Shown here: positions 20,512-46,590 of the stretch, piece by piece
Layout: each line of letters starts with the position of its first letter
How positions within the stretch are numbered: the first letter of the stretch is position 1
DNA from: a virus
Taxonomy: Duplodnaviria; Caudoviricetes
DNA: 61,799 nucleotides
IMG/VR virus record: IMGVR_UViG_3300037634_002056
Span: 1 to 61,799 of that record
Reading direction: 5' to 3' (one strand)
Position numbers and translations under genes: made by a program
The notes under the pieces: model-generated
Seen by the model: only the letters and a program-made list of their open reading frames with translations
Database searches by the model: none
What the model was told of the DNA's origin: nothing

Positions 20512-20540
20512 ACTATACAGTAAGACGTATTGGTTGTCAA
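20512..20540 (-). promoter_or_regulatory. early promoter copy 3
   Basis: TTGACA-accAATACGTCTTactg-TATAGT. Confidence 0.85.
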
Positions 20541-23500
20541 CCCCAAGTTTGTTTTATTAATTCATCAATTTCACTTAATTCACTAACTACCTGATCATAT
20601 TCAGCATTAGATAAGTTTGCATTATATTTCATTATTTTTGCTATTGTATTATCTCGCAATTCTTTTTCTTGCTGACGTGATTTTGACATCATTAACGGAT
20701 CAAATGCAGTATCACGTAGCACCTTGCCGTGTTGTAACAATTTAAATATATTAATTATCCACCAGCCTGATACTTTTGACTTTTTCTTGTTCTTTCGATT
20801 CCATGGCATATTTAAATACAAATAAACATTTGCTAGATCTGCCATCGTATCAGTTTTATGCGTATTATAATAGTCTACCCATAATCTAGCAACTTCATAT
20901 TCATCTTTATATGCCATTACGTTAAATAAGTTATGCATTACTACATCTGAATATTCGGTCCTATTCAAAGATTTATCTATTAGGATTGCCTCTTGAACCA
21001 ATTTCTTATACTCATCTGCATATTTGACAGATTTATACTTCTTTAATATTTCATATCTATATAAGAACGGATCATCAGTATGTTGCTTTTCACTAATATG
21101 ATAATCTATTTCACTTCTTAGTTCGTCTATTGCATATGCACGACCACAGTGCCATGCATATTGATTATCATCCACTGCTGCACCATTAATTTCAATTGCT
21201 TTTAACATACTTTCTTCAGTAATAGGCAGCCATCCCATTTGATATGCATAACCATACATAAATGATGTTCCTGTTATCGACGATCCCAATAACTTATTGA
21301 CAATTTTCTTGACTGGGATAGGAGCTAATGTGCGCGAGTTAGACTTTGCAATATCGAGACTCAATGTATCATCAAATTTCCAATCACGATTTGTAATTAG
21401 TTCTGACGATGAACTTGAATTGGTATTAAAAACAATATTTGTATGGTCACCCATTAATTGTACACTTGTTGTATTAGTAACAACTTGTGGATCAATGCCT
21501 ATAATTAAATTAGCAGTGCCTTTATATATTTGACCCATTGCATGTTCGCCTATGCTGATTTCACTTGTCACAGCACCGTATTTCTGTGCCAATCCAGTTG
21601 AATCAATTGCACTAACTTTATGTCCGTCTAATGAAGCTGCTACTGCTAACATCTGACTAGAGCTAACAATACCAGTTCCACCAATGCCACTTAATAGAAC
21701 ATTATATCTCTTGAAATTTGTATCTAGTTCTGGTTTAGGGATATCAAATGACAACCGATCTTTAAGATCATACTGTTCAACATAACCATCAACTGTCATA
21801 AATGATGGACAAAATCCTTTCAAGCAAGATAAATCTATATTACAATTATCGTAATCTATAGTTCTTTTTGTTCCAAGCGGAGTATCTAGTGATACTATAC
21901 TTAGGCAAGTAGACTTAGTGCTACAATCACCGCACCCTACGCATATTTCTGGATTAATAAATGGCTTAGTGTCTATACCTTCTTGCAAACCTCGTTTTAT
22001 TTTTCGGCGTCTTTCTGTGGCACATTGCTTTTCGTGAATAATTACAGAAACACCTTTTTTATGTTTAAATTCTTCTTGTACTTCCATTAATGAATCCAGT
22101 GGTTCGGTACGAATTGCATGTGTAAACTTATCAGACACAATGCAGACATCATTGATGTCAATGCCTTCAGCTAACACTTGATTCACTACCATATCAACTG
22201 TCAACTTACCGTCAACAGGTTGGCCGCCAGTCATTGCCACTGCATCATTGTACAATATTTTATATGTCATATTGGCGCCAACGGCAACGGCTTGTCTAAT
22301 TGCTAATAATCCTGAATGGAAATAAGTACCATCACCCAAGTTAACAAATACATGTTTCGCTGAATCATATAAATGTTGCCCGCACCACATTGATCCTTCT
22401 CCGCCCATTGGAGAAAGAGATACATGATCTCTATCTTGCATTCCTCGTACCATAATATGGCAACCAACACCAGCTAGTCCAACTGAACCTTCAGGTAGCT
22501 TTGTACCAACATTATGAGGACAACCTGAACAGAAGTGAGGGACACGGCCTTCACTAGTTATGTTTGATGCTACAGGAATTTTTACTGCTTTACGTAATAC
22601 AGTTTCATTAAACACTTCTGTTATTTTTACTGCATCAAAATCTAATTCTTGTGGGAAATGGGATTTGCCTACTAACGGGGTAGTAATCCCCATATCATAT
22701 AATTTTGCCTTTAATTGATCTTCTACAAACCCTCGTTTTTCTTCAATAACAATAATCTTATCTCTATCTTTCGCGAAATCTATTAAGTCTTGGGTAATAG
22801 GATAAGACATGCCTACTTTCATAATATCAATGCCGTATGCTTCTATGTCAATGCCATTAACATTTATTGCATTAATTAGATCAACATAATTTTTGCCAAC
22901 TGCATAAACTGCAATCTTACCTTTTTTAGATTTATGGGTGACTTCATTGAATGGATTAAGTTTAACAAATTCTTCTATTGCTGGAAATTTTTGTTGGATC
23001 ATTCGTGCTTCTTGAGAATCACCGTCATCTGGCCATCTAACTGAAACATCAAACTCTTTTTCTGGAATAGTAGGAGCCCATGCATCTAAATTTACATCGA
23101 CTGACTGATAAGCATCTGCAATATTACTTACTATCTTTACTGAACACCAAAGGCCACTGTAACGTGATAATGCTACAGCGTTAATACCTAAACGTAATAT
23201 ATCCTCTACACCAGACGGTGTGATGCTTGGAATACTCCAACTGGCTAATGTTGAGCAAGTTTCATGTGGCAATGCTGAACTTTTTTTAGGATGATCATCA
23301 CCAGCAAACATAACAACACCACCTGTAGCAGAGGTGCCAAATAAATTACAATGTCGTAACTGGTCACCTGCTCTATCTACACCAGGACCCTTGGCGTACC
23401 AAAATGCAAATGTTCCATCATATAACTTATCACCAACTAGTCCAGCGTTTTGCGTACCTTGTACCATTCCCGCAGCAAGATCTTCGTTAACTCCAGGTAT

Positions 23501-23722
23501 GAATGTTATACCAGCAGCATCTGTTATGTGTTTCTGTTTAACAAATTCAACATCAACGCCGCCCAATGGACTGCCTCTATAACCAGAAACAAACCCGGCG
23601 GTATTAAGACCGTTGCGTTTATCTAGTTCTTTCTGCAACAACGCAAGTTTTAGTATTGACTGTGAGCCAGACATAACGAATACACCATCATTCGATAAAT
23701 ATCTATTCTCTAATTCGCCCAT
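20537..23722 (-). CDS. indolepyruvate:ferredoxin oxidoreductase family protein (fused alpha/beta)
   Basis: SGYRGSPLGG, NEDLAA, FCSGCPH, GDGTYFHSG (TPP), AMTGGQ, CVGCGDC...CPSF, GIGGTG, GLAQKYG, MAYKDEYEVARL. Confidence 0.92.
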   Translation of the reverse strand: MGELENRYLSNDGVFVMSGSQSILKLALLQKELDKRNGLNTAGFVSGYRGSPLGGVDVEFVKQKHITDAAGITFIPGVNEDLAAGMVQGTQNAGLVGDKLYDGTFAFWYAKGPGVDRAGDQLRHCNLFGTSATGGVVMFAGDDHPKKSSALPHETCSTLASWSIPSITPSGVEDILRLGINAVALSRYSGLWCSVKIVSNIADAYQSVDVNLDAWAPTIPEKEFDVSVRWPDDGDSQEARMIQQKFPAIEEFVKLNPFNEVTHKSKKGKIAVYAVGKNYVDLINAINVNGIDIEAYGIDIMKVGMSYPITQDLIDFAKDRDKIIVIEEKRGFVEDQLKAKLYDMGITTPLVGKSHFPQELDFDAVKITEVFNETVLRKAVKIPVASNITSEGRVPHFCSGCPHNVGTKLPEGSVGLAGVGCHIMVRGMQDRDHVSLSPMGGEGSMWCGQHLYDSAKHVFVNLGDGTYFHSGLLAIRQAVAVGANMTYKILYNDAVAMTGGQPVDGKLTVDMVVNQVLAEGIDINDVCIVSDKFTHAIRTEPLDSLMEVQEEFKHKKGVSVIIHEKQCATERRRKIKRGLQEGIDTKPFINPEICVGCGDCSTKSTCLSIVSLDTPLGTKRTIDYDNCNIDLSCLKGFCPSFMTVDGYVEQYDLKDRLSFDIPKPELDTNFKRYNVLLSGIGGTGIVSSSQMLAVAASLDGHKVSAIDSTGLAQKYGAVTSEISIGEHAMGQIYKGTANLIIGIDPQVVTNTTSVQLMGDHTNIVFNTNSSSSSELITNRDWKFDDTLSLDIAKSNSRTLAPIPVKKIVNKLLGSSITGTSFMYGYAYQMGWLPITEESMLKAIEINGAAVDDNQYAWHCGRAYAIDELRSEIDYHISEKQHTDDPFLYRYEILKKYKSVKYADEYKKLVQEAILIDKSLNRTEYSDVVMHNLFNVMAYKDEYEVARLWVDYYNTHKTDTMADLANVYLYLNMPWNRKNKKKSKVSGWWIINIFKLLQHGKVLRDTAFDPLMMSKSRQQEKELRDNTIAKIMKYNANLSNAEYDQVVSELSEIDELIKQTWG

Positions 23723-23739
23723 GTATTTTCTCCTACATT

Positions 23740-24156
23740 TTATGGTGCCGCGTCCCTTTCATCCCACGGTCCCATTTCATAACAAGGCTGGGGCATTATA
23801 TCTTTATATATGATAAGAACTTCAGTTCCGGTTGCTGTGGTTTTTGAAGTTATTGTTTCGACCCCTTGTTCCCTTGGCTTACCAAAACATCTATTGTTGC
23901 TTTGGCCTGGATATCTATAACGCGGATTGTGCGCTAGAAAATCAATTAATTCTTTAAGATGTTCTTCTTCTGTTTTTATAATATATGAATCATGACATGA
24001 TGCTGGTATATTAAAGTCAAAAGTGTTAAAATGTTCCTTTGTATAGTTACTCTTTAATAAACACATCTTTAAAATATTATTGGATTCAGATGCATCAGCC
24101 GCTGGTAAAAAGCCAAGCGTGGTTAAAATAACTAACATCATTACTACATCCCGCAT
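23740..24156 (-). CDS. hypothetical secreted protein
   Basis: signal-peptide-like N-terminus. Confidence 0.6.
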   Translation of the reverse strand: MRDVVMMLVILTTLGFLPAADASESNNILKMCLLKSNYTKEHFNTFDFNIPASCHDSYIIKTEEEHLKELIDFLAHNPRYRYPGQSNNRCFGKPREQGVETITSKTTATGTEVLIIYKDIMPQPCYEMGPWDERDAAP

Positions 24157-24160
24157 AATT

Positions 24161-24661
24161 TTATGTCTCTACTTTATTTACTGTGATTCCAGACTTGTGC
24201 AAGAAATCCGTGCCAGCTGTACTGCGATAATCATGTTTATAGTATACATTGGTTATACCACTTTGATAAATTAATTTAGCACAGTTTATACATGGCGAGT
24301 GTGTACAAAATAATGTAGCATCCTTTCCACTTTCATGGCTACCTGCAAGTTTAGTTAGTGCATTAGCTTCTGCATGCAATACTTCTGGTTTAGTTACAAG
24401 TCGATAGCGATTACCTTTCTCATCTTGATATGGCCATTGATCCTCAACTGTTGAGGTATTTAACCAACATCCTGCATCATTGTCCATATACTCTCTATGT
24501 TCGCAATCATTGTCCCAACCCATTGGCATGCCATTATAGCCAATACTAATAATACGATTATCCTTAATAACGATGCTGCCTACTTTTAGTCGTTCAGCAT
24601 ATGATAGTTCTGCAAATCGCTCAGCTACATCCATAAATGCGTGTATATATTTTTCTTTCAT
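24161..24661 (-). CDS. dCMP deaminase
   Basis: SIGYNG, HAEANAL, PCINC. Confidence 0.92.
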   Translation of the reverse strand: MKEKYIHAFMDVAERFAELSYAERLKVGSIVIKDNRIISIGYNGMPMGWDNDCEHREYMDNDAGCWLNTSTVEDQWPYQDEKGNRYRLVTKPEVLHAEANALTKLAGSHESGKDATLFCTHSPCINCAKLIYQSGITNVYYKHDYRSTAGTDFLHKSGITVNKVET

Positions 24662-25014
24662 TTTAGGCTCTTGACTTTTCTAGGCGTATATCGACTGGTC
24701 CGTTTACAATGTCAGCAGCAATTGCCTTAGCATCATCTACCATTTTTAAAACCTCTTGAACCGTTTCTCTTGGTAAATCCCCAAATGTTGCCTGAAACGT
24801 GAAGTCATAGTTTTTATCGTATTCGATATCCACATCAAGCCTCTGAATTATATATTCAATCTGAGGATTGGACTTCTGAAGTTGATATCTCAAGCGATGA
24901 ATTTCAGTGGTCTTCTCAAGCAAAACCTTTGCCTTTTTATGCAGCTCGTCTATACTATGATACATCTTCATGATCTCCCTTATCCATAAATGCGTGTATA
25001 TATTTTTCTTTCAT
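24629..25014. repeat. 33-bp direct repeat (24629-24661 and 24982-25014) flanking an inserted ORF
   Basis: ATCCATAAATGCGTGTATATATTTTTCTTTCAT twice = first 11 codons of dCMP deaminase. Confidence 0.9.
24663..24971 (-). CDS. hypothetical protein (inserted)
   Basis: 102 aa, GGGAG RBS, between the 33-bp repeats. Confidence 0.7.
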   Translation of the reverse strand: MKMYHSIDELHKKAKVLLEKTTEIHRLRYQLQKSNPQIEYIIQRLDVDIEYDKNYDFTFQATFGDLPRETVQEVLKMVDDAKAIAADIVNGPVDIRLEKSRA

Positions 25015-25460
25015 ATTAGATTTTGATTACTTGGTGTTAGGTGGTCGCCATTCTCGATGGTCTTAATATTATGGCAATTGTGACATAATGTCTGTAAATT
25101 GGATGGATCATTGTTTTCATGATTACCATCAATATGGTCCACGCTTAATGAACTACGTACCATTGAATTAAATAATTTTGGGTCACTTTTTTTGTATTTG
25201 TTAACCCTAGGCAGTTTAGCAGGTTGAAAATTACATTCTTCACAATAGTCTAATCGATGTTGACTGTATACTTTTTCTGCCGTTGCTAATCCACCAAACT
25301 GTTTAAAGTTGCGTTGGTGTTCATCACAATAGTCCTTCTCACCTGGCCCCTTCCATAATGTAAGATGCTTATCACATCCAGGAACCTTGCACTTATTTGA
25401 TAATGCTATACGCATTTCATTTGTGCTTTTGCGTTGACGGTCTGTAGCTTCGCGGATCAT
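25011..25460 (-). CDS. HNH endonuclease with Zn-binding motifs
   Basis: CKVPGC..YCDEH; CEEC; DHIDGNHENN...LCHNCH. Confidence 0.85.
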   Translation of the reverse strand: MIREATDRQRKSTNEMRIALSNKCKVPGCDKHLTLWKGPGEKDYCDEHQRNFKQFGGLATAEKVYSQHRLDYCEECNFQPAKLPRVNKYKKSDPKLFNSMVRSSLSVDHIDGNHENNDPSNLQTLCHNCHNIKTIENGDHLTPSNQNLI

Positions 25461-26647
25461 GCTACCTCCATTGTTTTAAAATTATAACTCTCTGCAAATG
25501 ATGGTAAATCAAATTCGAAGTTATTTTGTGCAAGGACTCGGGCAATCCATGGTGGAGCAACTTTTGTTTGGTTACATCGATAAGTTTTACCATCAATTAA
25601 TCGACCCGCAGCCTTTTCAGCGTCTACATATGTTTGATATGCATCCTGTACAAGCTTATGTTTTTTACTGCCTACTACCCATGTATTTTCAGTAACACGG
25701 CTCATAATTTTTGCAATAGCGTTAAGATAGTCGTCTGTAATTTGAATACCATCATTTAAACATTGACGTATAAACACACTCATATTATCTATTTCTAGTG
25801 ATACAAATGGCTTGTCTGCATTTGTAATTGAATGGTAATACATAACACGTTCAAAAATCTCAACTGGGAAATTACGATTAAAGACTTCTGTCATACGTGA
25901 CCACGCGCCAGCATTCTTTTCATCACCAAACTTTTCATCAGTGGCAAAGTATGAATACTTCTCAAAATAGCTCTGCATAGTAAAGCATCTGATATTCCAA
26001 AAATCTTCACAGTTATCATGACGCATACCAGCAACATACTGTTTATACAAATCAATATTATCCAATTGTTTGCTAGTTTTACCACTATTAAATTCTACAA
26101 ATCGACGTCGAATTGCTGCTCGATCATCTCCAGGATATTCATCAACTGGAATTAAGATATCTTCAGGATCAGCCCCAAAGCCAAATGTACCAATAATCCA
26201 TAATGCTATCGCAGTATGTTGGCCATCCCATGCAACTTGTCGATCTATTAAGCCGTCTTTGCGATGACTGTCGCGGTATGTACGGATACGGTTAACATAG
26301 CTTGGATCAAATTCACCAACAATGTTTAGTAAATTTTCTCGATCTGGCCAACGTTGCATAGTATCGTTAATGTCAAGAACAATACTTGAATAATATTCAA
26401 TCTTACCCATGCCTACCATGTCTTGGATCATATCACTGTATGTTTCATAACCCATAGCAGCAACCATTCCTTGGGCAAGTGATTCAAACATTGTTGGTAA
26501 TATCGGGTCTTTTTGGTACAATTCTTGTAATCGTTCACCAATGGTGACAAATTTATCTTCATCACTGTGATATGATTCATTGATACGATTAGCATATTCA
26601 TCAACTAACTTAATCATTGGGGCTGCCTTCTTTTTAGTTGCTGTCAC
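25457..26647 (-). CDS. ParB/Srx-like (DGQH-motif) protein
   Basis: MQR...WDGQHTA...FVEFN pattern. Confidence 0.55.
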   Translation of the reverse strand: MTATKKKAAPMIKLVDEYANRINESYHSDEDKFVTIGERLQELYQKDPILPTMFESLAQGMVAAMGYETYSDMIQDMVGMGKIEYYSSIVLDINDTMQRWPDRENLLNIVGEFDPSYVNRIRTYRDSHRKDGLIDRQVAWDGQHTAIALWIIGTFGFGADPEDILIPVDEYPGDDRAAIRRRFVEFNSGKTSKQLDNIDLYKQYVAGMRHDNCEDFWNIRCFTMQSYFEKYSYFATDEKFGDEKNAGAWSRMTEVFNRNFPVEIFERVMYYHSITNADKPFVSLEIDNMSVFIRQCLNDGIQITDDYLNAIAKIMSRVTENTWVVGSKKHKLVQDAYQTYVDAEKAAGRLIDGKTYRCNQTKVAPPWIARVLAQNNFEFDLPSFAESYNFKTMEVA

Positions 26648-26652
26648 AATTA

Positions 26653-27072: not shown

Positions 27073-27076
27073 AATA

Positions 27077-27433: not shown

Positions 27434-27466
27434 GTTGTTTGCTCCTAAATCTCAGTTCGTACATAA

Positions 27467-27495
27467 ATTATAACACACGGAAATAACTATGTCAA
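27467..27495 (-). promoter_or_regulatory. sigma70 promoter
   Basis: TTGACA-17 nt-TATAAT. Confidence 0.75.
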
Positions 27496-27566: not shown

Positions 27567-27597
27567 AATGTCACCTTTTTGTTTAACTTATACTTAT

Positions 27598-28806: not shown

Positions 28807-30198
28807 TTAATATTTCATATTTTCATCGATTTTATAGTTACGGGTACCATTATTTGCGACAAGATTGAATAATGTAGCCACCCCAAAGCCAGTAGCACCG
28901 TAAGGAACAATTTCAGTACCTGATTCACTCCATGCCATACCAGCAATATCTAAGTGCGCCCAACTACGACCCTCATCAACAAATCGATATAAAAACTCTG
29001 CGGCTGTGGTTGAGCCACCATATGGTCCACCAATATTTTGCATATCAGCAATCTTAGAATCAATCATCTTATTCCAGTTTTTGCCCATTGGCATCCGCCA
29101 AAATTCTTCACCTAGCTTTGATCCATCTGCTTGAATGGTTTCGCTTAATTCACTAGAGTTAGTAAATAGTCCTGCCATTTCATGACCAAGCGATACTAGT
29201 ATAGCACCAGTTAAAGTAGCTACGTCAATAATTACATGCGGGTCGTAGGTTTGCACATATGTTAAAATATCAGCTAACACTAGTCGGCCTTCTGCATCTG
29301 TATTAAGATTTTCAACCGTTTGTCCACTCATTGATGTAACAATATCACCAGGCTTAATAGCTTTACCATCAGGCATGTTTTCAACTAATCCAACAATCCC
29401 AACCACATTGTGGTTTACTTTGTTGCTGCCAATAGCATGCATTGCTCCAACTACTGCGGCACTCCCGCCCATATCAAACTTCATATCCGCCATGCCTTTG
29501 CCTGGCTTTAGTGAAATACCACCAGAATCAAATGTAACACCTTTACCTACTAAAGCAATGGGTTTGGCATCTGCATCAGGATCATTCATGTATTCCATCA
29601 CAACAACAAAGCTATCTTTTTCACTACCTTGTCCTACACTTAGAAGCAAATCAAAACCCAGGGTTTCTAATTGTGATTGGTGTAAAATTTTAACAGTTAC
29701 ACCTACTGCATTTAATGCTGACTCGATTCGATATGCATAGTTTTGCGGGAATAGTTTATTGCCGGGTTCAGAAACAAGAGTGCGAGCTAGCTCTATGCTT
29801 TCACTTAGTAGATTATTTTTTAATCCATGAATAGCTAATTGTGTTGATTTTTTATCTGTCTTATATTTGTTAAATTCATAGTTTGCAAGCCGAGCACCAT
29901 CAGCTAGATGTTCATTTCCTAGTTCAAAATAGATATTGTCTACATCTTTGCGTTTACGATATTCTTTAACAAGCTGCCCGCCAAGTTTTAACCATTCATT
30001 TGGCGTATCCTCACTCATTATAATAACACGTACAAAATCGATATCAGCGCCAGGGTATTGCACTTCGACATCTTTTGTTTTTTTAATATAATTGCGATTA
30101 CAAACTTCGTCTAACTTCTTCTTTAGAGATTTGTTTAATTTTTTATATGCGGCGCTGTTATGTTCAACAATTACAACACTTTTGCTGTTATAATCCAT
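28807..30198 (-). CDS. pepA: leucyl aminopeptidase (peptidase M17)
   Basis: VGKGVTFDSGG, MKFDMGG, NTDAEGRL, DVATLTGA, WAHLDIAG; start MDYNSK after AAGGA. Confidence 0.92.
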   Translation of the reverse strand: MDYNSKSVVIVEHNSAAYKKLNKSLKKKLDEVCNRNYIKKTKDVEVQYPGADIDFVRVIIMSEDTPNEWLKLGGQLVKEYRKRKDVDNIYFELGNEHLADGARLANYEFNKYKTDKKSTQLAIHGLKNNLLSESIELARTLVSEPGNKLFPQNYAYRIESALNAVGVTVKILHQSQLETLGFDLLLSVGQGSEKDSFVVVMEYMNDPDADAKPIALVGKGVTFDSGGISLKPGKGMADMKFDMGGSAAVVGAMHAIGSNKVNHNVVGIVGLVENMPDGKAIKPGDIVTSMSGQTVENLNTDAEGRLVLADILTYVQTYDPHVIIDVATLTGAILVSLGHEMAGLFTNSSELSETIQADGSKLGEEFWRMPMGKNWNKMIDSKIADMQNIGGPYGGSTTAAEFLYRFVDEGRSWAHLDIAGMAWSESGTEIVPYGATGFGVATLFNLVANNGTRNYKIDENMKY

Positions 30199-30424
30199 AA
30201 TTGTATCCTTTGTTTTTAATTTCAGTTGGGTCAATAGTAAATTCCAAACCAGCCATTTTAGCAACAAACAGGTTCTTTTTTTCTTTATGGAAATGCAAAA
30301 CTACATCCTGCATGTTAACACGTATAACATCTTGTCGTTGGTCTACAATGATACCGTCGATTTTCTTGCCATTGTCAGTACAGGTTACTGTAATTTCTTG
30401 CATATCCGAGATATAATATCCCAT
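30188..30424 (-). CDS. hypothetical protein
   Basis: 78 aa, GGAG RBS. Confidence 0.7.
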   Translation of the reverse strand: MGYYISDMQEITVTCTDNGKKIDGIIVDQRQDVIRVNMQDVVLHFHKEKKNLFVAKMAGLEFTIDPTEIKNKGYNYGL

Positions 30425-30448: not shown

Positions 30449-30477
30449 AAAAAAGCGAAGCCTGTTATAGGCTCCGC
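30449..30477 (-). terminator. rho-independent terminator
   Basis: GCGGAGCCT-ataac-AGGCTTCGC followed by T run on minus strand. Confidence 0.75.
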
Positions 30478-30484: not shown

Positions 30485-31522
30485 TTATGCTTTCGCTTCT
30501 TCTTCCGCTGCATCTAGCACACGGTTAAATTCACGCAAACGTTTAATGACTGATTGGAAGTCAACAATCGTTGTCCATCGATCAATAAAGTAAGTTAATG
30601 CGCCTTCGACTCTACCAAATGCATTTAGTACCTGAATAAGTACACCAAATGTAATTAGCTGTGCGAAATAACTAGGTGCAAGTACAATAAGAGCCACGTT
30701 ACCTGCAATTAGACTAAAGCCAGTTTGCCATACACCAAAGCCCATATACCAGTTAAACAAGCGGTAATAGTTGCGCTTAACACTCGCAAACATTGGGAAT
30801 AGATCTGCGCTAACACGTTCACTAAAGTCATCTTCACTGTGAACAAGTTTTTTACGAAACTTAGCTTCAACAACCTGGTTACGGTATTCCAATCCAGGAA
30901 GTTTCATACCTAGTAGGAATGATAGTGCGGTGCCGCCTAAGCTCATTGTTAGTGCTACCCAAACTAAGAAGCCTGGAATAATTTGGCCATTCCATACTGG
31001 TAAGCCTTCACTTAGTTGCCATAATACTGGTAAAAATGCACTTAAAATAAAGATTTTGTTAACAAATCCCGTAAACAATGATTGCAATGTTTTACCGAAA
31101 ATCATCAAATCTTCTTGAATACGTTGTGATCCACCTTCAATAACAGCGGTAGATTCTTCCCATCGCATTAGATAGTGATGCGTATTCGCTTCTCTCCAGC
31201 GGAATGTGTACCGTTGAGTTTGCCAAGTAGCATAGGTTGCCATTGGTACATATATAATTAATATTTCTAGAAAACTTGGTACTGTGGTTTTTTCATCCAT
31301 ATTAAACGAAATAAAATCAATCATCCGTAATGAATCAAAACTCCAAAACAATTGCCAAAACCTATCTTCTTGAAGGGTTTGGATTGCATCGTAGAACTCT
31401 CGGTTCCATGAGTTATAGTAAACCAAAATTTGAACATTGTACCAACCTATGAACAGTAGCCAAGCCAGCATTAGCCAGGCGTACGGAGCATTCTTTGACG
31501 TCCAAAAGAAACTTTTAAGCAT
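30485..31522 (-). CDS. sbmA: SbmA/BacA-family peptide transporter
   Basis: MLKSFF, WNREFYD, FRWREAN, EGGSQRIQED, LPGLEYRNQVVEAKFRKKLV, SVIKRLREF. Confidence 0.88.
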   Translation of the reverse strand: MLKSFFWTSKNAPYAWLMLAWLLFIGWYNVQILVYYNSWNREFYDAIQTLQEDRFWQLFWSFDSLRMIDFISFNMDEKTTVPSFLEILIIYVPMATYATWQTQRYTFRWREANTHHYLMRWEESTAVIEGGSQRIQEDLMIFGKTLQSLFTGFVNKIFILSAFLPVLWQLSEGLPVWNGQIIPGFLVWVALTMSLGGTALSFLLGMKLPGLEYRNQVVEAKFRKKLVHSEDDFSERVSADLFPMFASVKRNYYRLFNWYMGFGVWQTGFSLIAGNVALIVLAPSYFAQLITFGVLIQVLNAFGRVEGALTYFIDRWTTIVDFQSVIKRLREFNRVLDAAEEEAKA

Positions 31523-31540: not shown

Positions 31541-32410
31541 TTACTTTAAACCAGCGTCAGGCGCACTGCCGCTGAAGCCCCAGAAATTCCTATAGTTTGT
31601 TGCAAGTTCAATTAAGCCTTTGCGTAAAGGAAAGTCATTTGGTTTCAGCCAATACATTGACGAATTTGGTATCTTAATAAACAGAAGTCTCAAGTCTGGA
31701 CTTTCAACACCTAATGATTGTAATAATTGCATCAAGTTCGCAGCGGTTCTAAAACTACTAGATTCTAACTGCCTTCTGTTTAAATTATTAATAGCACCTT
31801 CTGGTGTGCCAGGGCCATGTATGCCAAGCCACACGTCACCAATAAGGTACCGTTGGTCACCACCTAAAAACATAAGACTACATGCACTAGCACACATTGT
31901 TTTGCCAGCCATATAGTTATCATCTTCTGGGATAGTTCCTGGGGTATAAATTATTTCCCCGTTTTCATTCATTACAGTCGTATCTCGTACAACTGTAACA
32001 ACATCTCGTAATTTTAAATGAGCTGCTAAACAGCTTCCTTCAGCTAGGTTTCCGCCTGGTGATTCAAGTATCACAGTAAATGCCTGTGGCATGTCTGGTA
32101 TAATACGTTCGCAATCTCCGTCGCCTACACTACCTGTCAAAGTATAAAGGTTATCACCAATTAATTTAAATTCTAAATGATCGTTTGGGTCATCAGCTTC
32201 GTCTGCTGCTTTTTCATCATTTAAATCATGATACATAACCATGAAATCATCGTAATACATATGGCCTTGATTAACTACTAGTACAGTACACAGTATTGTT
32301 AACCCGCCCAAAAATGTATTTTGGAATAATTTATTAATAGCCCGATAAACAAAAGTTTCTTTTGACTTTTGCACTAATACCTTGACTATGTTTTTCAGAA
32401 AATTTAACAT
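31541..32410 (-). CDS. membrane-anchored ClpP/crotonase-fold (COG3904-like) protein
   Basis: N-terminal TM; LESPGG, CASACSLMFLGG, LGIH. Confidence 0.55.
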   Translation of the reverse strand: MLNFLKNIVKVLVQKSKETFVYRAINKLFQNTFLGGLTILCTVLVVNQGHMYYDDFMVMYHDLNDEKAADEADDPNDHLEFKLIGDNLYTLTGSVGDGDCERIIPDMPQAFTVILESPGGNLAEGSCLAAHLKLRDVVTVVRDTTVMNENGEIIYTPGTIPEDDNYMAGKTMCASACSLMFLGGDQRYLIGDVWLGIHGPGTPEGAINNLNRRQLESSSFRTAANLMQLLQSLGVESPDLRLLFIKIPNSSMYWLKPNDFPLRKGLIELATNYRNFWGFSGSAPDAGLK

Positions 32411-38740: not shown

Positions 38741-39082
38741 TTATAGCCCGCAACTTTTTATAGATGCGTTACTTGGGCACCCGCCACATTCGTCTGACTG
38801 TGGATTCGATACTTCTAACGTAGACCCAAATTCGTCTTTTTCGATGGTTATAGTTGCGCCATATAGATACATAAAGCTTACATCATCTATTACTAACTTA
38901 CAGCCATTCTCTAGATCAATAACTTCATCACCTGGGACCAAATTATCTGGGTCGGCAAAATACCATCCATATTGATATCCAGAACAGCCTGCACCTATAA
39001 TTGCTAACCGTGGATATTGATTGTCATTTTCTTGACTTGATTTTAATAAATGCTCTTTCGCTTCTTGTGCAACATTAATCAT
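38741..39082 (-). CDS. HesB/IscA/ErpA-type Fe-S cluster carrier
   Basis: GAGCSGYQY, IDDVSFMYLYG, NP...CGGC (variant of CGCG). Confidence 0.85.
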   Translation of the reverse strand: MINVAQEAKEHLLKSSQENDNQYPRLAIIGAGCSGYQYGWYFADPDNLVPGDEVIDLENGCKLVIDDVSFMYLYGATITIEKDEFGSTLEVSNPQSDECGGCPSNASIKSCGL

Positions 39083-39094
39083 ATATTTTATCTC

Positions 39095-39808
39095 CTAGTG
39101 ATAACAGACCATTGGTCTAATTTTACAATACCAGTCTGGCATGTCTGATGGGTTAACAGTATGAAAGAATACTTCTTCAAGCTCTTGCCACCCTTGCCAT
39201 AAGAAGTAAATTCCTAAAAATATCATTGCAAATTTACTAATAGTAAAGAATAATTTGACTGGTATTTGCAACATTACTCGTTTAAGTATAATATATAGAA
39301 TAAATAATGCAACTAACGCCACCACGCCACCTGTTATAATAACATCTGATTGTTCAATATCACTTAGGAATAATGCATTGTAAAACAATACAATTTCAAA
39401 TCCCTCGCGTAAAATGGCAAACATTACCGTTGCTGATAAAGCCAATGCAGTACCAGTTGATACATTCTGTTCAATACCATGTTTAATATGCTGTTCAGGT
39501 CCGTGACACCACCACGCTACATAAAATAGCATTAATGCAGCAATAATCATGGTAATACCTTCGAACAGTTCTTCATGCTCATGCGTGGCTTCTGCTATTA
39601 CGCTAAATCCAGTAGCTACTAGTATACTCAACAAGATTCCAGAAAACACACCATACCAGACATATCTATTTTTATCACGCACATTAAGAATTTCCAGATA
39701 TGAAAAAACTAACATAACAATTAGCATTGCTTCTAATCCTTCGCGGAATATAATAAAAAATGAGCCTATAAAGGCCAGTACTTCTGCATTTGTTAAAAGA
39801 TCAGTCAT
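39095..39808 (-). CDS. FTR1/EfeU-family iron permease
   Basis: two REGxE motifs (REGLE, REGFE); multiple TM helices. Confidence 0.9.
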   Translation of the reverse strand: MTDLLTNAEVLAFIGSFFIIFREGLEAMLIVMLVFSYLEILNVRDKNRYVWYGVFSGILLSILVATGFSVIAEATHEHEELFEGITMIIAALMLFYVAWWCHGPEQHIKHGIEQNVSTGTALALSATVMFAILREGFEIVLFYNALFLSDIEQSDVIITGGVVALVALFILYIILKRVMLQIPVKLFFTISKFAMIFLGIYFLWQGWQELEEVFFHTVNPSDMPDWYCKIRPMVCYH

Positions 39809-40082
39809 TTGTTTTCTCCATATTAATTTTCACTACAACGGGGTCTAAGATGGTCCCAATGTCTTTTGATTGTAACATATCCCTTAGTTTAAAAGAGAAT
39901 TGTAATAGTTCATCATGGGTTTTGAATTTGTCTAAGAATTGTATATTCTCACCACGCCTGAGCATTTTAATATAATCTATAAAACCTGAATCAACCCATT
40001 GATAAGGTGAATAAAGTCCCATTGTAAAATATTCCAGTGAACTAATTTTTTCGTCATTTGTCATTTTATTAATCACCATCAC
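39801..40082 (-). CDS. hypothetical protein
   Basis: 93 aa, overlaps both neighbours in operon. Confidence 0.55.
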
Positions 40083-40419
40083 CAGGTCTTTCGTCTAGTA
40101 ACTTGATTTTATTACCACCAGCATATCCTAACACTGGATTCATTTTATCTGAATCTGGCAGCGGATCTTTCCGTGCTGTGATTACTGGCCAAAGTCTACT
40201 ATATTTGTCATTAAAGTCGACCCATGACGCCCCTTCTTTAGTTGTGTCAGGTAAAATAGCACCTGTCGGGCATTCAGGCTCGCAAACACCACAATCAATA
40301 CATTCATTTGGACGAATTACTAATGTATTTGCTCCTTCATAAAAGCAGTCTACTGGACAAACTTCTACACAATCGGTATATTTGCATTTAATGCATGCAT
40401 CATTAACTATATATGTCAT
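40069..40419 (-). CDS. fdxA: dicluster ferredoxin (FdxA family)
   Basis: [21 protein letters not shown] ... [12 protein letters not shown]. Confidence 0.92.
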
Positions 40420-40922
40420 TCGATTAAGTTCTCATTCCATTCTCTATGGCCTTCACGATACGCTACATTGCTCTGTGTTTCACGTACTTCAACTTTAAAG
40501 CACCATAACCGCTCGGCTTCTGCTTCACCCCACATATCTGGAATATAAACACCATTGATATATCGATATAGCATATCAGCAAGTCCTTCGCACCCTAACT
40601 TAGGTAGAATGGTTAGTTTAGCAATACCACGCTCTTGCATTGTTTTGTATAGTTCTAACTCTGGATCATCTTCTGACACTAACAAGGTATGATCAAAAAA
40701 ATCTTTAAGTACACTTTTTAGTTCTTTTAATCCGCCATAATCAGCAGCCCAATTACGAACATCAAGTTCATTAGTACCAAAATAAAATTTCATACTAAAT
40801 GCATAACCATGGATTAGGTTACAATGGGAGTCAGCTTTCCACTGACGATATGCTACAGGAAAAGCATCTACATATTCTTTTGTAGACACATATTTATACG
40901 CTACTGGTACAATTTCATTCAT
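40416..40922 (-). CDS. queD: QueD/6-pyruvoyl-tetrahydropterin synthase family protein
   Basis: [24 protein letters not shown]. Confidence 0.8.
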
Positions 40923-43234: not shown

Positions 43235-43263
43235 ATTATAAGGTAAGACGTATTGAATGTCAA
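43235..43263 (-). promoter_or_regulatory. early promoter copy 5
   Basis: TTGACA-ttcAATACGTCTTacct-TATAAT. Confidence 0.85.
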
Positions 43264-43982
43264 GTATTGGAATACTTATTTTTTAATATGTTTGCGGTAT
43301 GTACGTGACTTTTTACATGATGTACCTTGCCACGTTTGTTAATTTGAATACTATGTGCAATACTAAAATCATTGCCGTTGATGTCACAGCGATCACCGAA
43401 AAATATCAACTCGTCGTAATCATCAAAATCTTTTAATATTTGTGATTTATCACAGCCAACTGGAAATATATCAAGCCCCGTTTCACCACCAACAGATGAT
43501 ATAATACCGTGATGTTTATATAATGAATTAAATTGTTCTGCTATGTTCTCACGCTCGCAATGTTTACGATCCCACAGCACATATTGTTGCCTTTCAACTA
43601 GTGATATTCCTCGTCCAGGAATACTAAAATTTAACATGCCTGGACGAATTTCAAAATGCTCGCCATTTTTGTTTTTAAATTTGCTTTGATTTAGCTCATG
43701 GCGTAGAAAGTTCATTGGAGCAGACGGCAACTCCCATGTATTACTATATACATTATTATCTTTTTCCCATACGTCATTGCCACTACAATTATAAACACGT
43801 TGGCAGCTATTGTAAATAACTTCACCAATTTGTTCAATTGTTTTTGGTCGATCACTGCCTGTTACTAGATATACATCGTTTGCATTACAAAACGCCTTAA
43901 ACCAAACAGCAAACTTTTTATCCATTGATTGTCTGCTTGGTGTTAAGGTTCCGTCTACATCAAATATATATGCAGTTGCCAT
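43260..43982 (-). CDS. HAD-IIB phosphomannomutase-like protein
   Basis: FDVDGTLTPSR, VTGSD, RPGMLNFS, GGETGLDI, FFGD...GND. Confidence 0.85.
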   Translation of the reverse strand: MATAYIFDVDGTLTPSRQSMDKKFAVWFKAFCNANDVYLVTGSDRPKTIEQIGEVIYNSCQRVYNCSGNDVWEKDNNVYSNTWELPSAPMNFLRHELNQSKFKNKNGEHFEIRPGMLNFSIPGRGISLVERQQYVLWDRKHCERENIAEQFNSLYKHHGIISSVGGETGLDIFPVGCDKSQILKDFDDYDELIFFGDRCDINGNDFSIAHSIQINKRGKVHHVKSHVHTANILKNKYSNT

Positions 43983-44886: not shown

Positions 44887-44888
44887 GT

Positions 44889-45545: not shown

Positions 45546-45576
45546 AATCTTGGTCTCGTGGTTAACTTATACTTAT

Positions 45577-45605
45577 ATGATACAGTAAGACGTATTGGTT
45601 GTCAA
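45577..45605 (-). promoter_or_regulatory. early promoter copy 6
   Basis: identical to copy 1 over 44 nt (TTGACA...TAAGTTAA). Confidence 0.85.
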
Positions 45606-45618
45606 CCTTTTTTTAGAT

Positions 45619-46590
45619 TTATTTTAACCTATCATTTGCTATTTGTTCTGCGGCATGCTGTATTGGCATTCCTTCATCTGATGCTATATTAAATATGCTA
45701 TCTATTCGTACAGTTAGTTCGTGCGTTAATGCATCCTTATAATCTTTTTTCTCAAAATCTAATGCGGCGGCGACCACACCACCACAGTTAGCAACGAAAT
45801 CTGGAACATACTTGATGCCCATATTGTGTGCCGTGATAATATCGTTACGAGTGCCAAATACGTTATTTGCACTACCACATACATATTTTGATTTGATTAA
45901 TTGGAGTGATGATTCATTTAGCGCACCACCTAATGCACAAGGAACATAAAATTCGCCTTGTAGCAATGCAGTTTCTTCTATATGAGTAACACCTTCTAAA
46001 CTATCGACAAATGGATCATAAGCTTCTATTTTACCATCTAGCATTTTGATTAAATGTTTGCCAACTTTGCCAAGTCCCTGTACTGCAAATGTCTGATCTT
46101 TTATTTCTAGTCCATCTTGCTTGAGCAATGTTTTAATACTAGTATGTACTCCTAATGCTGTTGGTAGACTAGTATCTAATGTTATGCCTGTCACATATGA
46201 TGTTGTATCATTCACTCTATATAGATCGTCAACTCCTGTACCGACATCACCAGCACATATATATGCGCCGTCGTGAAGATTTACGGCTTTACCAAGCATT
46301 TGATATGCTAAGTCTCTGTCTTTAATTTTGAGTGCATTTATAGTAGTTTTGGCGCCACCATGATTTAATCCTGATGCCGCATTTTTGAATGTCATGCCTT
46401 CACTAAGGCGTAATGCGTCTGTTAGTTGTGATTCGAAAGTTTCATAGTTATAACATCTAATTCCGCCAATGGCTGGTCCTAATTTTGTGCTATGTATAGC
46501 AATTATTGCATCCAAGCCCGACTCAAGATGTTCAACATGTAATACTCTTTCGTATCCATCAATAGACATTTCGGTTCGTTTAATTAACAT
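45619..46590 (-). CDS. Glu/Leu/Phe/Val dehydrogenase (leucine dehydrogenase-like)
   Basis: HSTKLGPAIGGIR, LRLSEGMTFK, GGAK, DVGT, QGLGKVG, PCALG, GSANN, PDFVANCGG. Confidence 0.92.
   Translation of the reverse strand: MLIKRTEMSIDGYERVLHVEHLESGLDAIIAIHSTKLGPAIGGIRCYNYETFESQLTDALRLSEGMTFKNAASGLNHGGAKTTINALKIKDRDLAYQMLGKAVNLHDGAYICAGDVGTGVDDLYRVNDTTSYVTGITLDTSLPTALGVHTSIKTLLKQDGLEIKDQTFAVQGLGKVGKHLIKMLDGKIEAYDPFVDSLEGVTHIEETALLQGEFYVPCALGGALNESSLQLIKSKYVCGSANNVFGTRNDIITAHNMGIKYVPDFVANCGGVVAAALDFEKKDYKDALTHELTVRIDSIFNIASDEGMPIQHAAEQIANDRLK

What the first reader, a model, noticed from the sequence alone, without database searches (positions are those of the whole stretch)
20537..46590. Dispersed peptide-to-reduced-ferredoxin pathway in a phage
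Seen: SbmA/BacA peptide importer (30485), M17 leucyl aminopeptidase two genes downstream (28807), Leu/Phe/Val dehydrogenase (45619), indolepyruvate:ferredoxin oxidoreductase (20537) and FdxA ferredoxin (40069). Known: these steps chain chemically, peptide -> amino acid -> 2-oxoacid -> acyl-CoA + reduced ferredoxin. Inference: the phage may scavenge peptides for energy and for the low-potential electrons its many radical SAM enzymes need. I do not recall this full set being described for a phage.
Basis: partly seen in the sequence, partly recalled or inferred. Interest (0 to 1): 0.8.

Follow-up and report, generated by a model that had tools for sequence, protein, structure and literature searches.

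The report
Scattered metabolic genes, marine jumbo phage
A large uncultured marine phage really does carry five intact genes that could chain peptides to reduced ferredoxin, but its relatives inherit them separately, so a single dedicated pathway remains unproven.

Summary
All five genes exist at the stated coordinates and look intact. The window is about 17% of an uncultured T4-like marine jumbo phage.

The genes lie in five separate predicted transcription units and do not travel together:
- In 20 PolB-anchored relatives (28-205 kb fragments): FdxA 10/20, M17 5/20, SbmA-like 3/20, IOR 0/20, Leu-type dehydrogenase 0/20.
- A 92%-complete relative (342 kb, 20 radical SAM matches) has the dehydrogenase, M17, SbmA-like and FdxA, but no 2-oxoacid:ferredoxin oxidoreductase of any kind.
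- Other phage contigs with IOR place it in a different cassette (IOR, VOC, FAH) and lack the other four genes.

Best reading: a mosaic of accessory genes forming two recurring groups.
- Peptide and amino-acid scavenging: a newly recognised ClpP-fold protein paired with the SbmA-like transporter, plus M17 and the LeuDH-like enzyme.
- An iron/Fe-S/ferredoxin operon in a clade very rich in radical SAM genes.

IOR is a lineage-specific addition that could link the two groups, which is an inference only. Interest is moderate. The gene families are new as phage genes, but the five-step pathway is not shown to be a unit.

The parts
20537..23722 (-). Fused IOR-family 2-oxoacid:ferredoxin oxidoreductase, 1061 aa. 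It is the last gene of a roughly 7-kb transcription unit that starts near 27.5 kb.
   Evidence: Pfam DUF6537, POR and TPP_enzyme_C. NF009589 scores 1021 bits against a cut-off of 816, while the IorA equivalog TIGR03336 scores only 160 against 651. GDG at 463 and Cys 398/401/421/567 and 594/597/600/606/627/633/638 are present, and invariant among 6 phage-type sequences. No PHROG family matches. No PDB sequence relative at E<=1e-3.
28807..30267 (-). M17 leucyl aminopeptidase. The likely true start is the ATG at 30198.
   Evidence: PF00883 E 5e-118. NF002077 scores 505.7 bits against 471. NTDAEGR at residue 322. Orthologues of 57-60% identity occur in G009, G010, G012, G015 and G026.
30188..30424 (-). 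78-aa ORF between the SbmA-like gene and M17, function unknown.
30455..30477 (-). Intrinsic-terminator-like hairpin directly after the SbmA-like stop codon.
   Evidence: 9-bp stem with 6 GC pairs and a T run. An RNA-library contig ends at 30479 while DNA contigs run on past it; this is a weak hint from one study.
30485..31522 (-). SbmA/BacA-family inner-membrane transporter, a short form lacking about the first 84 residues of E. coli SbmA.
   Evidence: PF05992 E 2.6e-77. It is below both NCBIfam equivalog cut-offs: 289.6 against 385 and 236.2 against 492. Aligns to 7p34 residues 85-395. 77-81% orthologues occur in G010 and G026.
31541..32410 (-). Membrane-anchored ClpP-fold, serine-protease-like protein, 19 nt upstream of the SbmA-like gene.
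   Evidence: No Pfam family in any of 29 family members scanned. SPGG, C-A-S175-A-C and H198 are invariant. AF2 model has pLDDT 88.5. Foldseek top hits are ClpP, E 4.8e-7, TM 0.55-0.65 by target. The pair with the SbmA-like gene is conserved in G010 and G026.
38741..39082 (-). A-type (IscA/ErpA-like) Fe-S carrier, last gene of the ferredoxin operon.
   Evidence: Pfam Fe-S_biosyn scores 35.5 against 26.3. It is below the NCBIfam cut-offs. A homologue lies near FdxA in G008.
39095..39808 (-). FTR1/EfeU-family iron permease.
   Evidence: PF03239 E 1.2e-21. A weak homologue lies next to FdxA in G014.
39801..40082 (-). 93-aa ORF of unknown function inside the ferredoxin operon.
40069..40419 (-). 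FdxA-type 7Fe ferredoxin.
   Evidence: NF045490 scores 148.1 against 135. Matches phrog_8732. The Cys ligands are invariant in 8 phage orthologues. Present in 10 of 20 PolB-anchored relatives and in G026.
40416..40922 (-). QueD-like 6-carboxytetrahydropterin synthase, first gene of the ferredoxin operon. A sigma-70-like promoter lies in the 144-nt spacer upstream.
   Evidence: PF01242. phrog_2389. Upstream sequence printed.
45619..46590 (-). Short (323 aa) Leu/Phe/Val/Trp-type amino-acid dehydrogenase. It is the last gene of the unit dNMP kinase, KdsA, KdsB, dehydrogenase.
   Evidence: Pfam. LeuDH structures are the best match, E 2.4e-54. Both catalytic-region lysines and GxGxxG are present. 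At least 120 clusters of 54-81% identity occur in metagenomes.
5004..16460 (+). Array with five radical SAM genes (5004, 7222, 8577, 11135, 15285) and PP-loop/QueC-like genes. These are the presumed users of reduced ferredoxin.
20520..20540 (-). One of six copies of the promoter motif TTGACAACCAATACGTCTTAC. The others are at 131(+), 27626, 43263, 45605 and 52472(-). None directly precedes any of the five genes. Copies sit just downstream of the IOR and of the dehydrogenase.
   Evidence: 6 matches against 0.01 expected.

Best explanation
The five genes are real, intact accessory metabolic genes of an uncultured T4-like marine jumbo phage of about 360 kb. They are a mosaic, not one inherited pathway.

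Two groups recur in the clade:
- A peptide and amino-acid group: a membrane-anchored ClpP-fold protein paired with an SbmA-like importer, an M17 aminopeptidase, and a LeuDH-like dehydrogenase.
- An iron/Fe-S/electron-carrier operon (QueD-like, FdxA 7Fe ferredoxin, a 93-aa ORF, FTR1-like permease, A-type Fe-S carrier). It accompanies a very large radical SAM gene complement.

The fused IOR-family oxidoreductase is a lineage-specific addition at the end of another transcription unit. Its most likely chemistry is oxidative decarboxylation of branched-chain or aromatic 2-oxoacids to acyl-CoA, with reduction of a ferredoxin. FdxA is the only ferredoxin found among the window ORFs scanned. So in this phage alone the chain amino acid to 2-oxoacid to reduced FdxA is possible.

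Shown here: gene identities, intact motifs, predicted operon structure, distribution among relatives, synteny, and presence in independent metagenomes.

Inferred only: substrates, direction of flux, that IOR reduces FdxA, and that FdxA feeds radical SAM enzymes.
For: Identity and intactness.

Separate units: IOR, the SbmA-like gene and the dehydrogenase are each the last gene of a unit. A terminator follows the SbmA-like gene. FdxA has its own five-gene operon.

Distribution in the 20 longest of the 80 listed PolB relatives (at least 597 matched): FdxA 10/20, M17 5/20, SbmA-like 3/20, IOR 0/20, ELFV 0/20.

G026 (342 kb, CheckV 92%, PolB 58% identical) has ELFV at 59%, M17 at 57%, SbmA-like at 81% and FdxA at 63% identity, plus 20 radical SAM matches, but no DUF6537 and no POR domain.

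FdxA is present in 7 of 7 contigs with 11 or more radical SAM matches.

The ClpP-fold and SbmA-like pair is conserved in G010 and G026.

Phage-type IORs fall on one side of a branch with SH-aLRT 100. In other phages they sit in an IOR-VOC(-FAH) cassette, with an omega-aminotransferase or a thioredoxin-like ORF upstream.

Amino-acid-linked context of cellular IORs: Lrp/AsnC regulators in 5 of 30 loci and LysR in 8 of 30; a Leu-type dehydrogenase 33 nt upstream in 1 of 84 loci; leucine/isovalerate catabolic genes (annotated isovaleryl-CoA dehydrogenase, acyl-CoA carboxylase subunits, enoyl-CoA hydratase) beside it in an Acinetobacter chromosome record.
Against: Almost all relatives are fragments (1-56% complete), so absences are weak. 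The exceptions are G026 and the syntenic PolB-FdxA interval, where 10 of 10 relatives holding both genes have no ELFV match anywhere on the contig.

Four of the five genes do recur together in G026. That is more co-occurrence than a purely random mosaic predicts.

M17 is directly adjacent to FdxA in G009 and G012. This could mean a functional tie that I cannot explain.

The window's IOR has a very long branch (2.26), and the tree was the quick one, with composition bias flagged.

No expression or biochemical data exist.
Confidence: 0.5

Rival explanations
1. The five genes work as one flux: peptide import, hydrolysis, deamination and oxidative decarboxylation, selected to give energy and low-potential electrons to the phage's radical SAM enzymes through FdxA.
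For: The steps are chemically contiguous (established biochemistry; the peptide-fermentation scheme is recalled). All five genes are intact and lie within 26 kb on one strand. There are 6 radical SAM matches in the window. Four of the five recur in G026. A ClpP-fold partner sits beside the importer. One cellular locus has the dehydrogenase directly upstream of the IOR.
Against: The genes lie in five transcription units. IOR is absent from G026, which carries 20 radical SAM matches and FdxA, and from 20 of 20 PolB-anchored relatives. The IOR-bearing G001 (72.8 kb) has none of the other four and no radical SAM match. No Pfam family that I recognise as an acyl-CoA-to-ATP enzyme appears among the 89 window ORFs scanned. 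The natural substrate of the short SbmA-like form is unknown.
Confidence: 0.12
2. IOR is carried for carbon chemistry, not for electrons. It would make a particular acyl-CoA, for a small catabolic cassette or for acylation or hypermodification chemistry. The SbmA-like transporter, M17 and the dehydrogenase would simply balance the amino-acid and nitrogen pool for phage protein synthesis. FdxA would serve the radical SAM enzymes using host reductases.
For: In other phages the IOR sits in a conserved IOR-VOC(-FAH) cassette. VOC follows IOR in 4 of 6 contigs (L005, L008, L009/G001, L014) and FAH follows in 2. An omega-aminotransferase ends exactly at the IOR start in L005, L006 and L008, which are 97-99.6% alike and so count as one lineage. 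An AMP-binding enzyme lies nearby in L014. G026 manages 20 radical SAM matches and FdxA without any OFOR. Two GNAT acyltransferases lie in the window at 60368-61765.
Against: The window's IOR has none of the VOC, FAH, aminotransferase or thioredoxin-like neighbours; tblastn found no hit to the window. No acyl-CoA-consuming partner is identified. The enzyme must still unload two electrons onto some carrier.
Confidence: 0.2
3. Reverse, anabolic direction. Reduced ferredoxin plus acyl-CoA plus CO2 gives a 2-oxoacid through IOR, and the dehydrogenase aminates it. The set would then supply branched-chain or aromatic amino acids.
For: Both reactions are reversible in principle, and reductive carboxylation by IOR/VOR is known in anaerobes (recalled, not tested here). 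The theme of amino-acid supply fits M17 and the importer.
Against: The phage comes from seawater metagenomes, where low-potential reductant is scarce. No source of reduced ferredoxin other than the IOR itself is encoded in the window. Cellular relatives lie next to catabolic regulators and genes.
Confidence: 0.05
4. Some of the five have non-metabolic roles. M17 might act as a PepA-like DNA-binding or recombination accessory factor. The SbmA-like protein, with its membrane neighbours, might be a membrane-remodelling or exclusion function. The apparent pathway would then be coincidence.
For: PepA moonlighting is known in E. coli (recalled). The SbmA-like gene shares a unit with a MotA/ExbB-like gene and other membrane ORFs. 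A 35%-identical SbmA-like gene in G016 also lies beside homologues of those ORFs. M17 lies next to different genes in different relatives.
Against: The M17 catalytic signature is intact and the protein scores above the aminopeptidase equivalog cut-off. The N-terminal domain matches only weakly. The conserved core of SbmA is retained.
Confidence: 0.08

Closest known systems
Fused 'indolepyruvate ferredoxin oxidoreductase family protein' of aerobic Proteobacteria (NCBIfam NF009589/NF009588). Phaeobacter Ior1 is reported to convert phenylpyruvate to phenylacetyl-CoA (PMC5577590, one passage read).
   Same: Same domain order, scores above both subfamily cut-offs, and conserved TPP and Fe-S motifs.
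   Different: Only 37-40% identical to the listed cellular proteins and 80-130 residues shorter. It sits on a long branch with other phage-type sequences. Its substrate is untested. I did not verify that Ior1 belongs to this fused subfamily. No solved structure is related by sequence.
Peptide fermentation of hyperthermophilic archaea and anaerobes: peptide to amino acid to 2-oxoacid, then IOR/VOR/POR give acyl-CoA plus reduced ferredoxin, then an ADP-forming acyl-CoA synthetase makes ATP (recalled textbook scheme).
   Different: Here the IOR is a single fused protein, not IorAB. Deamination is by a LeuDH-type enzyme. No ATP-yielding acyl-CoA step was seen in the window. The genes are scattered and not co-inherited. 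The setting is a phage in oxic seawater.
Lake Baikal phages of Nitrospirota reported to carry 2-oxoacid:ferredoxin oxidoreductase subunits, a ferredoxin and an Fe-S cluster assembly protein (PMC7678222, two passages read).
   Same: Phage-borne OFOR-type genes together with a ferredoxin and an Fe-S assembly gene.
   Different: Those are host-like separate subunits, read by the authors as reverse-TCA genes captured together. Here a fused IOR-family enzyme lies 17 kb from the ferredoxin operon and is absent from close relatives.
E. coli SbmA (7p34) and Mycobacterium Rv1819c (6tqe).
   Same: The conserved transmembrane core aligns, with E 3.5e-57 and 5.6e-18.
   Different: It lacks roughly the first 84 residues of SbmA and scores below the SbmA equivalog cut-off. 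It is paired with a ClpP-fold membrane protein.
Phage ferredoxin auxiliary genes (PHROGs phrog_16249 'ferredoxin'; cyanophage plant-type ferredoxin, recalled).
   Same: A phage-encoded small electron carrier.
   Different: This is the 7Fe FdxA type. It matches phrog_8732, which has no assigned function (E 2.3e-38), and phrog_16249 only weakly (E 5.7e-6). It sits in an operon with an iron permease and an A-type carrier.

Membership tests
2-oxoacid:ferredoxin oxidoreductase, fused IOR-family subfamily (NF009589) | Whole-protein score above the curated subfamily cut-off | tested here: met
   1021.4 bits against 816. NF009588 also passes, 976.6 against 952.
2-oxoacid:ferredoxin oxidoreductase, fused IOR-family subfamily (NF009589) | TPP-binding GDG motif and cysteines of the TPP-proximal cluster | tested here: met
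   GDG at 463 and Cys 398, 401, 421 and 567, invariant in 6 sequences. Assigning these cysteines to particular clusters is recalled.
2-oxoacid:ferredoxin oxidoreductase, fused IOR-family subfamily (NF009589) | Ferredoxin-like domain with two full CxxCxxCxxxC motifs | tested here: inconclusive
   Seven conserved Cys (594, 597, 600, 606, 627, 633, 638) rather than eight, with unusual spacing.
Canonical indolepyruvate:ferredoxin oxidoreductase IorA/IorB | Score above the IorA (TIGR03336) and IorB equivalog cut-offs | tested here: not met
   160.1 against 650.9 for IorA. About 60 against 205-284 for IorB models.
Canonical indolepyruvate:ferredoxin oxidoreductase IorA/IorB | Arylpyruvate substrate and ferredoxin as acceptor | not testable with these tools
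   Needs an enzyme assay.
M17 leucyl aminopeptidase | Catalytic domain, NTDAEGR signature and equivalog cut-off | tested here: met
   PF00883 E 5e-118, NF002077 505.7 bits against 471, NTDAEGR at residue 322.
SbmA peptide-antibiotic transporter (equivalog NF008306) | Score above the equivalog cut-off and the full-length architecture | tested here: not met
   236.2 bits against 492. Aligns only to residues 85-395 of the 406-residue SbmA. It is a member of Pfam PF05992, 260.8 bits against 24.
SbmA peptide-antibiotic transporter (equivalog NF008306) | Peptide import | not testable with these tools
   Needs a transport or complementation assay.
FdxA 7Fe ferredoxin (NF045490) | Equivalog cut-off, Cys ligand pattern and C-terminal DUF3470 | tested here: met
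   148.1 bits against 135. DUF3470 E 2.5e-11. Cys 9, 17, 21, 40, 43, 46 and 50 are invariant in 8 phage orthologues.
Leu/Phe/Val/Trp amino-acid dehydrogenase | Both ELFV domains, the two conserved lysines and a GxGxxG nucleotide site | tested here: met
   Motifs seen: MTFKNA...GGAK and GLGKVG.
Leu/Phe/Val/Trp amino-acid dehydrogenase | Assignment to one substrate class | tested here: inconclusive
   Best PDB matches are LeuDH at 2.4e-54, TrpDH at 6.3e-42 and PheDH at 1e-30. The TrpDH equivalog scores 165 against 600. My reading of the pocket residues uses recalled numbering.
Peptide-to-reduced-ferredoxin pathway as one unit | Co-inheritance of the five genes in relatives | tested here: not met
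   IOR 0/20 and ELFV 0/20, against FdxA 10/20. G026 has four of the five and no OFOR. G001 has IOR only.
Peptide-to-reduced-ferredoxin pathway as one unit | Shared operon or shared regulatory signal | tested here: not met
   Five predicted units. The repeated promoter motif precedes none of the five genes. These are predictions only.
Peptide-to-reduced-ferredoxin pathway as one unit | An energy-conserving acyl-CoA step | tested here: not met
   I recognised no such Pfam family among the 89 window ORFs scanned. The window is only about 17% of the genome.
ClpP-fold (clan SK-like) serine peptidase, for ORF 31541-32410 | ClpP fold with conserved Ser and His | tested here: met
   Model pLDDT 88.5. 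ClpP chains are the top hits, E 4.8e-7. S175 and H198 are invariant in 29 sequences. No Pfam family matches. Activity and the side of the membrane are unknown.

The most novel reading that the evidence does not exclude
This phage lineage has assembled its own generator of low-potential electrons: a Leu-type dehydrogenase, a fused IOR-family oxidoreductase and a 7Fe ferredoxin. The generator would be fed by phage-driven peptide scavenging (ClpP-fold protein, SbmA-like importer, M17). Its purpose would be to keep an unusually large virus-encoded radical SAM arsenal reduced inside an aerobic marine host.
Probability: 0.2. Interest if true: 0.75.

Novelty: new member of a known kind. Interest (0 to 1): 0.5.

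Why it matters
Phage auxiliary metabolic genes are well known. However, IOR, M17 and the dehydrogenase matched no PHROG family. In 50,697 GenBank phage records they matched mostly records that appear to be cellular sequence: the two Acinetobacter 'phage' records are a bacterial chromosome, and I did not inspect the other hits.

If the IOR really reduces the phage ferredoxin, this would be a virus that makes its own low-potential reductant from amino acids. That bears on how radical SAM chemistry is powered in aerobic hosts.

Even without that link, the clade deserves attention. It is recurrent in marine metagenomes: 12 runs hold at least half the sampled words of the stretch. Relatives carry a ferredoxin/iron/Fe-S operon together with 11-20 radical SAM matches per contig.

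Tried and rejected
- Complex prediction of IOR residues 380-1061 with FdxA gave 'no answer' (score 0.00 against a mark of 0.32). It counts neither for nor against binding.
- The RNA-library run X16 has no contig over the IOR (20537-24538), while it covers part of M17 and the SbmA-like gene. Lack of cover shows nothing, and DNA can be present in such libraries.
- Single-sequence scans of viral contigs found no IOR relative. An alignment was needed.
- Two Atlas look-ups: ORF 33312-34025 belongs to viral families of unknown function. The look-up for ORF 31541-32410 gave only a lead, which I then tested by fold prediction and search.
- The small ORFs flanking the IOR (23740-24156 and 20132-20482) match no family. 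The upstream one is not the thioredoxin-like ORF seen beside the IOR in L007.
- Literature: 0 papers hold 'indolepyruvate ferredoxin oxidoreductase', 'phage' and 'auxiliary metabolic' together. No listed paper held 'DUF6537'. Four papers hold 'radical SAM', 'jumbo phages' and 'marine', and by title and abstract start none concerns this clade. These searches cover only the held library, and I opened no supplements.
- I considered the five genes being bacterial contamination and rejected it. T4-like core genes flank them, their composition matches the window, orthologues lie in other phage contigs, and independent metagenomes tile the stretch.
- I did not attempt host identification.

Full report
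**What the window is**

The 61.8-kb window is itself the whole record held. CheckV puts it at 17% of a genome. It carries T4-like replication genes: family B DNA polymerase, gp44-type clamp loader, DsbA and dNMP kinase.

The polymerase is 51% identical to that of Sinorhizobium jumbo phage Phosso, 47% to Atu_ph07 and about 44% to RaK2-like phages. At least 597 viral contigs encode a polymerase related to the window's; the 80 listed are 58-80% identical.

The stretch 20537-30267 is held near-identically by 12 sequencing runs (half of its sampled words or more). They are labelled as marine, seawater or unspecified metagenomes. Three DNA runs from three studies, none flagged as a possible source, tile 20537-40536 in all 30 bins at even depth, and contigs in them bridge M17 and the SbmA-like gene.

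This is a real, recurrent, uncultured marine jumbo phage.

- IOR-family protein: it scores above two NCBIfam subfamily cut-offs (1021 bits against 816, and 977 against 952) but far below the canonical IorA and IorB equivalogs. It keeps the GDG thiamine-diphosphate motif and eleven conserved cysteines.
- M17 peptidase: it passes an aminopeptidase equivalog cut-off and has NTDAEGR.
- Ferredoxin: it passes the proteobacterial FdxA equivalog cut-off. Its cysteine ligands are invariant in eight phage orthologues.
- Dehydrogenase: it has both ELFV domains, the conserved lysines and a GxGxxG site. It is closest to solved leucine dehydrogenases (E 2.4e-54), then tryptophan and phenylalanine dehydrogenases. 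Its substrate class is not settled.
- Transporter: it is a Pfam SbmA_BacA member but falls below both NCBIfam equivalog cut-offs. It aligns only to residues 85-395 of E. coli SbmA. 'Peptide importer' is therefore a family-level inference.

A 78-aa ORF does lie between the SbmA-like gene and M17. The window has six radical SAM matches. GC and GC3 of the five genes match the rest of the window.

**Local organisation argues against one unit**

A 21-nt promoter-like motif occurs six times against 0.01 expected. Together with sigma-70-like sites, a strong terminator-like hairpin and gene spacing, it gives five predicted units:

- IOR is the last of eight genes in a unit starting near 27.5 kb. A motif copy overlaps its stop codon.
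- The SbmA-like gene ends a unit that begins upstream of the clamp loader and runs through a MotA/ExbB-like gene and small membrane ORFs. The hairpin at 30477-30455 follows it.
- The 78-aa ORF, M17 and ORF 27684-28742 follow.
- FdxA lies in a tight operon: QueD-like, FdxA, a 93-aa ORF, FTR1-like permease and an A-type Fe-S carrier.
- The dehydrogenase ends a unit with dNMP kinase, KdsA and KdsB. Another motif copy lies just downstream.

Three of the five genes therefore sit at the 3' ends of units. This is where independently added genes would be expected (my inference). All of this is prediction from sequence.

I searched the 20 longest of the 80 listed polymerase-anchored relatives (28-205 kb; CheckV 1-56%). 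The results:

| Gene | Present in |
|---|---|
| FdxA | 10/20 |
| M17 | 5/20 |
| SbmA_BacA | 3/20 |
| DUF6537 (IOR) | 0/20 |
| ELFV_dehydrog_N | 0/20 |
| Radical SAM (at least one match) | 17/20 |

Fragment absences are weak evidence. However, in all 10 relatives that hold both the polymerase and FdxA, no dehydrogenase lies anywhere on the contig. In the window it sits between those two genes.

Anchoring on the dehydrogenase gave 8 loci. One lies in G026, a 342-kb record rated 92% complete. G026 has:

- the dehydrogenase (59% identity);
- M17 (57%);
- the SbmA-like gene (81%, with the same two upstream neighbours);
- FdxA (63%);
- a polymerase 58% identical to the window's;
- 20 radical SAM matches.

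G026 has no DUF6537 and no POR domain at all. G027 is the same phage at a constant coordinate offset and is not independent.

So four of the five genes recur together, spread over 143 kb. The one enzyme that would make reduced ferredoxin is the one that is missing.

**Where else the IOR occurs**

The closest proteins (45-48% identity) are unnamed metagenome sequences. The listed cellular relatives are 37-40% identical. In a quick tree the six phage-type sequences fall on one side of a branch with SH-aLRT 100. The window's sequence has a very long branch, and composition bias was flagged.

Six contigs carry the phage-type IOR: five viral contigs and one metagenome contig. T4 gp15-type tail genes lie beside the IOR in the three where I scanned neighbours, L007, L009 and L014. 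In these contigs the IOR has a different context:

- A VOC-family ORF follows it in 4 of 6 contigs.
- A fumarylacetoacetate-hydrolase-family ORF follows that in 2.
- A class III omega-aminotransferase ends exactly at the IOR start in three contigs. These are 97-99.6% alike and so count as one lineage.
- A thioredoxin-like ORF precedes it in two.

None of these neighbours has a homologue in the window.

None of these contigs has a homologue of the other four genes. Record-level searches of four of them, and of G001, agree. The longest, G001 (72.8 kb), also has no radical SAM match.

**Context of cellular IORs**

In 84 further loci from the two scans (1.09 Mb; the 4 viral-contig and 80 metagenome hits, one of which, L014, is the phage-type locus above), tblastn with six window proteins found one dehydrogenase. 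It lies 33 nt upstream of the IOR in L033. It found no FdxA, M17, SbmA-like, A-type carrier or FTR1.

Of 30 loci whose flanking ORFs I scanned, 8 had an adjacent LysR regulator and 5 an Lrp/AsnC regulator. In a chromosome record mislabelled as an Acinetobacter phage, the IOR lies beside genes annotated for leucine/isovalerate catabolism.

This fits a catabolic enzyme acting on amino-acid-derived 2-oxoacids. It also makes dehydrogenase-to-IOR coupling plausible but uncommon.

**A sixth part**

ORF 31541-32410, 19 nt upstream of the SbmA-like gene, has no Pfam match in any of 29 family members. It has invariant SPGG, C-A-S-A-C and His residues. Its model is confident (pLDDT 88.5): an N-terminal helical anchor plus a ClpP fold, with ClpP chains as the top structural hits.

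The pair is conserved in G010 and G026. Its activity and the side of the membrane it faces are unknown.

**The ferredoxin and radical SAM genes**

Relatives carry very many radical SAM matches:

| Record | Matches | Length |
|---|---|---|
| G012 | 18 | 79 kb |
| G009 | 18 | 110 kb |
| G006 | 18 | 205 kb |
| G011 | 16 | 80 kb |
| G007 | 16 | 127 kb |
| G026 | 20 | 342 kb |

FdxA is present in 7 of 7 contigs with 11 or more matches. FdxA-positive contigs hold 18, 16, 13, 18, 16, 18, 11, 1, 0 and 1 matches. FdxA-negative contigs hold 4, 7, 7, 4, 2, 0, 3, 1, 4 and 0.

That FdxA serves these enzymes is a reasonable inference, but nothing here tests it. Because G026 has both without any OFOR, the IOR cannot be a general requirement.

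**Verdict**

The most economical reading is a mosaic of accessory genes with two recurring groups: peptide and amino-acid scavenging, and an iron/Fe-S/ferredoxin operon. A lineage-specific IOR could join them in this phage. I put about 0.5 on this reading, 0.12 on the full five-step unit, and 0.2 on IOR being there for carbon chemistry rather than for electrons.

**Known precedents and novelty**

Phages of Nitrospirota from Lake Baikal are reported with OFOR subunits, a ferredoxin and an Fe-S assembly gene (PMC7678222, passages read). A Phaeobacter Ior1 is reported to convert phenylpyruvate to phenylacetyl-CoA (PMC5577590, passage read).

IOR, M17 and the dehydrogenase matched no PHROG family. 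In GenBank phage records they matched mostly records that appear to be cellular sequence. They are therefore new members of the known kind 'phage auxiliary metabolic genes'.

Noticed in passing
window 5004-16460 (+) and 49135-50161 (-); relatives G006-G014, G026: Very large radical SAM gene complements in this phage clade: 11-20 PF04055 matches per contig, with about 16 of them within 26 kb in G012. PP-loop/QueC-like genes are interleaved in the window. Searches of the held literature listed nothing that, by title or abstract start, concerns this clade.
   Followed up: partly
window 131(+), 20540, 27626, 43263, 45605, 52472 (-): A 21-nt extended promoter-like motif, TTGACAACCAATACGTCTTAC, occurs six times (0.01 expected) in front of operon starts. 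It is probably an early or middle phage promoter class.
   Followed up: partly
L005, L008, L009 (G001), L014: Other T4-like phage contigs carry a conserved cassette of IOR-family gene, VOC/glyoxalase-family ORF and FAH-family ORF. An omega-aminotransferase or a thioredoxin-like ORF lies upstream. Its chemistry is unexplained.
   Followed up: partly
G009 94303-95894; G012 28782-30376: In two relatives the M17 aminopeptidase gene is immediately followed by the FdxA gene. In the window these two genes are about 10 kb apart.
   Followed up: partly
window 28510-34478: In three DNA runs, some contigs join 28510 to 34478 with 14-15 other letters between. This suggests co-occurring strains or relatives that lack the 6-kb stretch with M17, the SbmA-like gene, the ClpP-fold gene and the MotA/ExbB-like gene (table 5c). 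Joints of this kind in metagenomes can be false.
   Followed up: no
window 24628-24982: One DNA run has a contig that skips 353 bases, removing ORF 24663-24971 between the dCMP deaminase and HNH genes.
   Followed up: no
window 34025-34477 and L185 (G016): A short MotA/ExbB-like ORF and ORF 33312-34025 lie in the same unit as the SbmA-like gene. In G016 their homologues sit next to a different SbmA-like gene that is only 35% identical. This hints at a conserved membrane module.
   Followed up: partly
window 43260-43982, 46622-48125: The Kdo pathway genes KdsA and KdsB and a phosphomannomutase-like gene lie in the same block. KdsA, KdsB, ClpP and a WYL_2 ORF are shared with G005.
   Followed up: no
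L001 (CAKLQF020000001.1): The GenBank records named 'Acinetobacter phage MD-2021a' are bacterial chromosome contigs carrying catabolic operons and LysR regulators. They produce false 'phage' hits for IOR, M17, SbmA and FdxA.
   Followed up: yes
window 37519-38025: A 168-aa ORF matches only a part of the DNA polymerase III alpha NTPase domain (PF07733, profile positions 16-94 of 260). It may be a fragment or a split gene.
   Followed up: no
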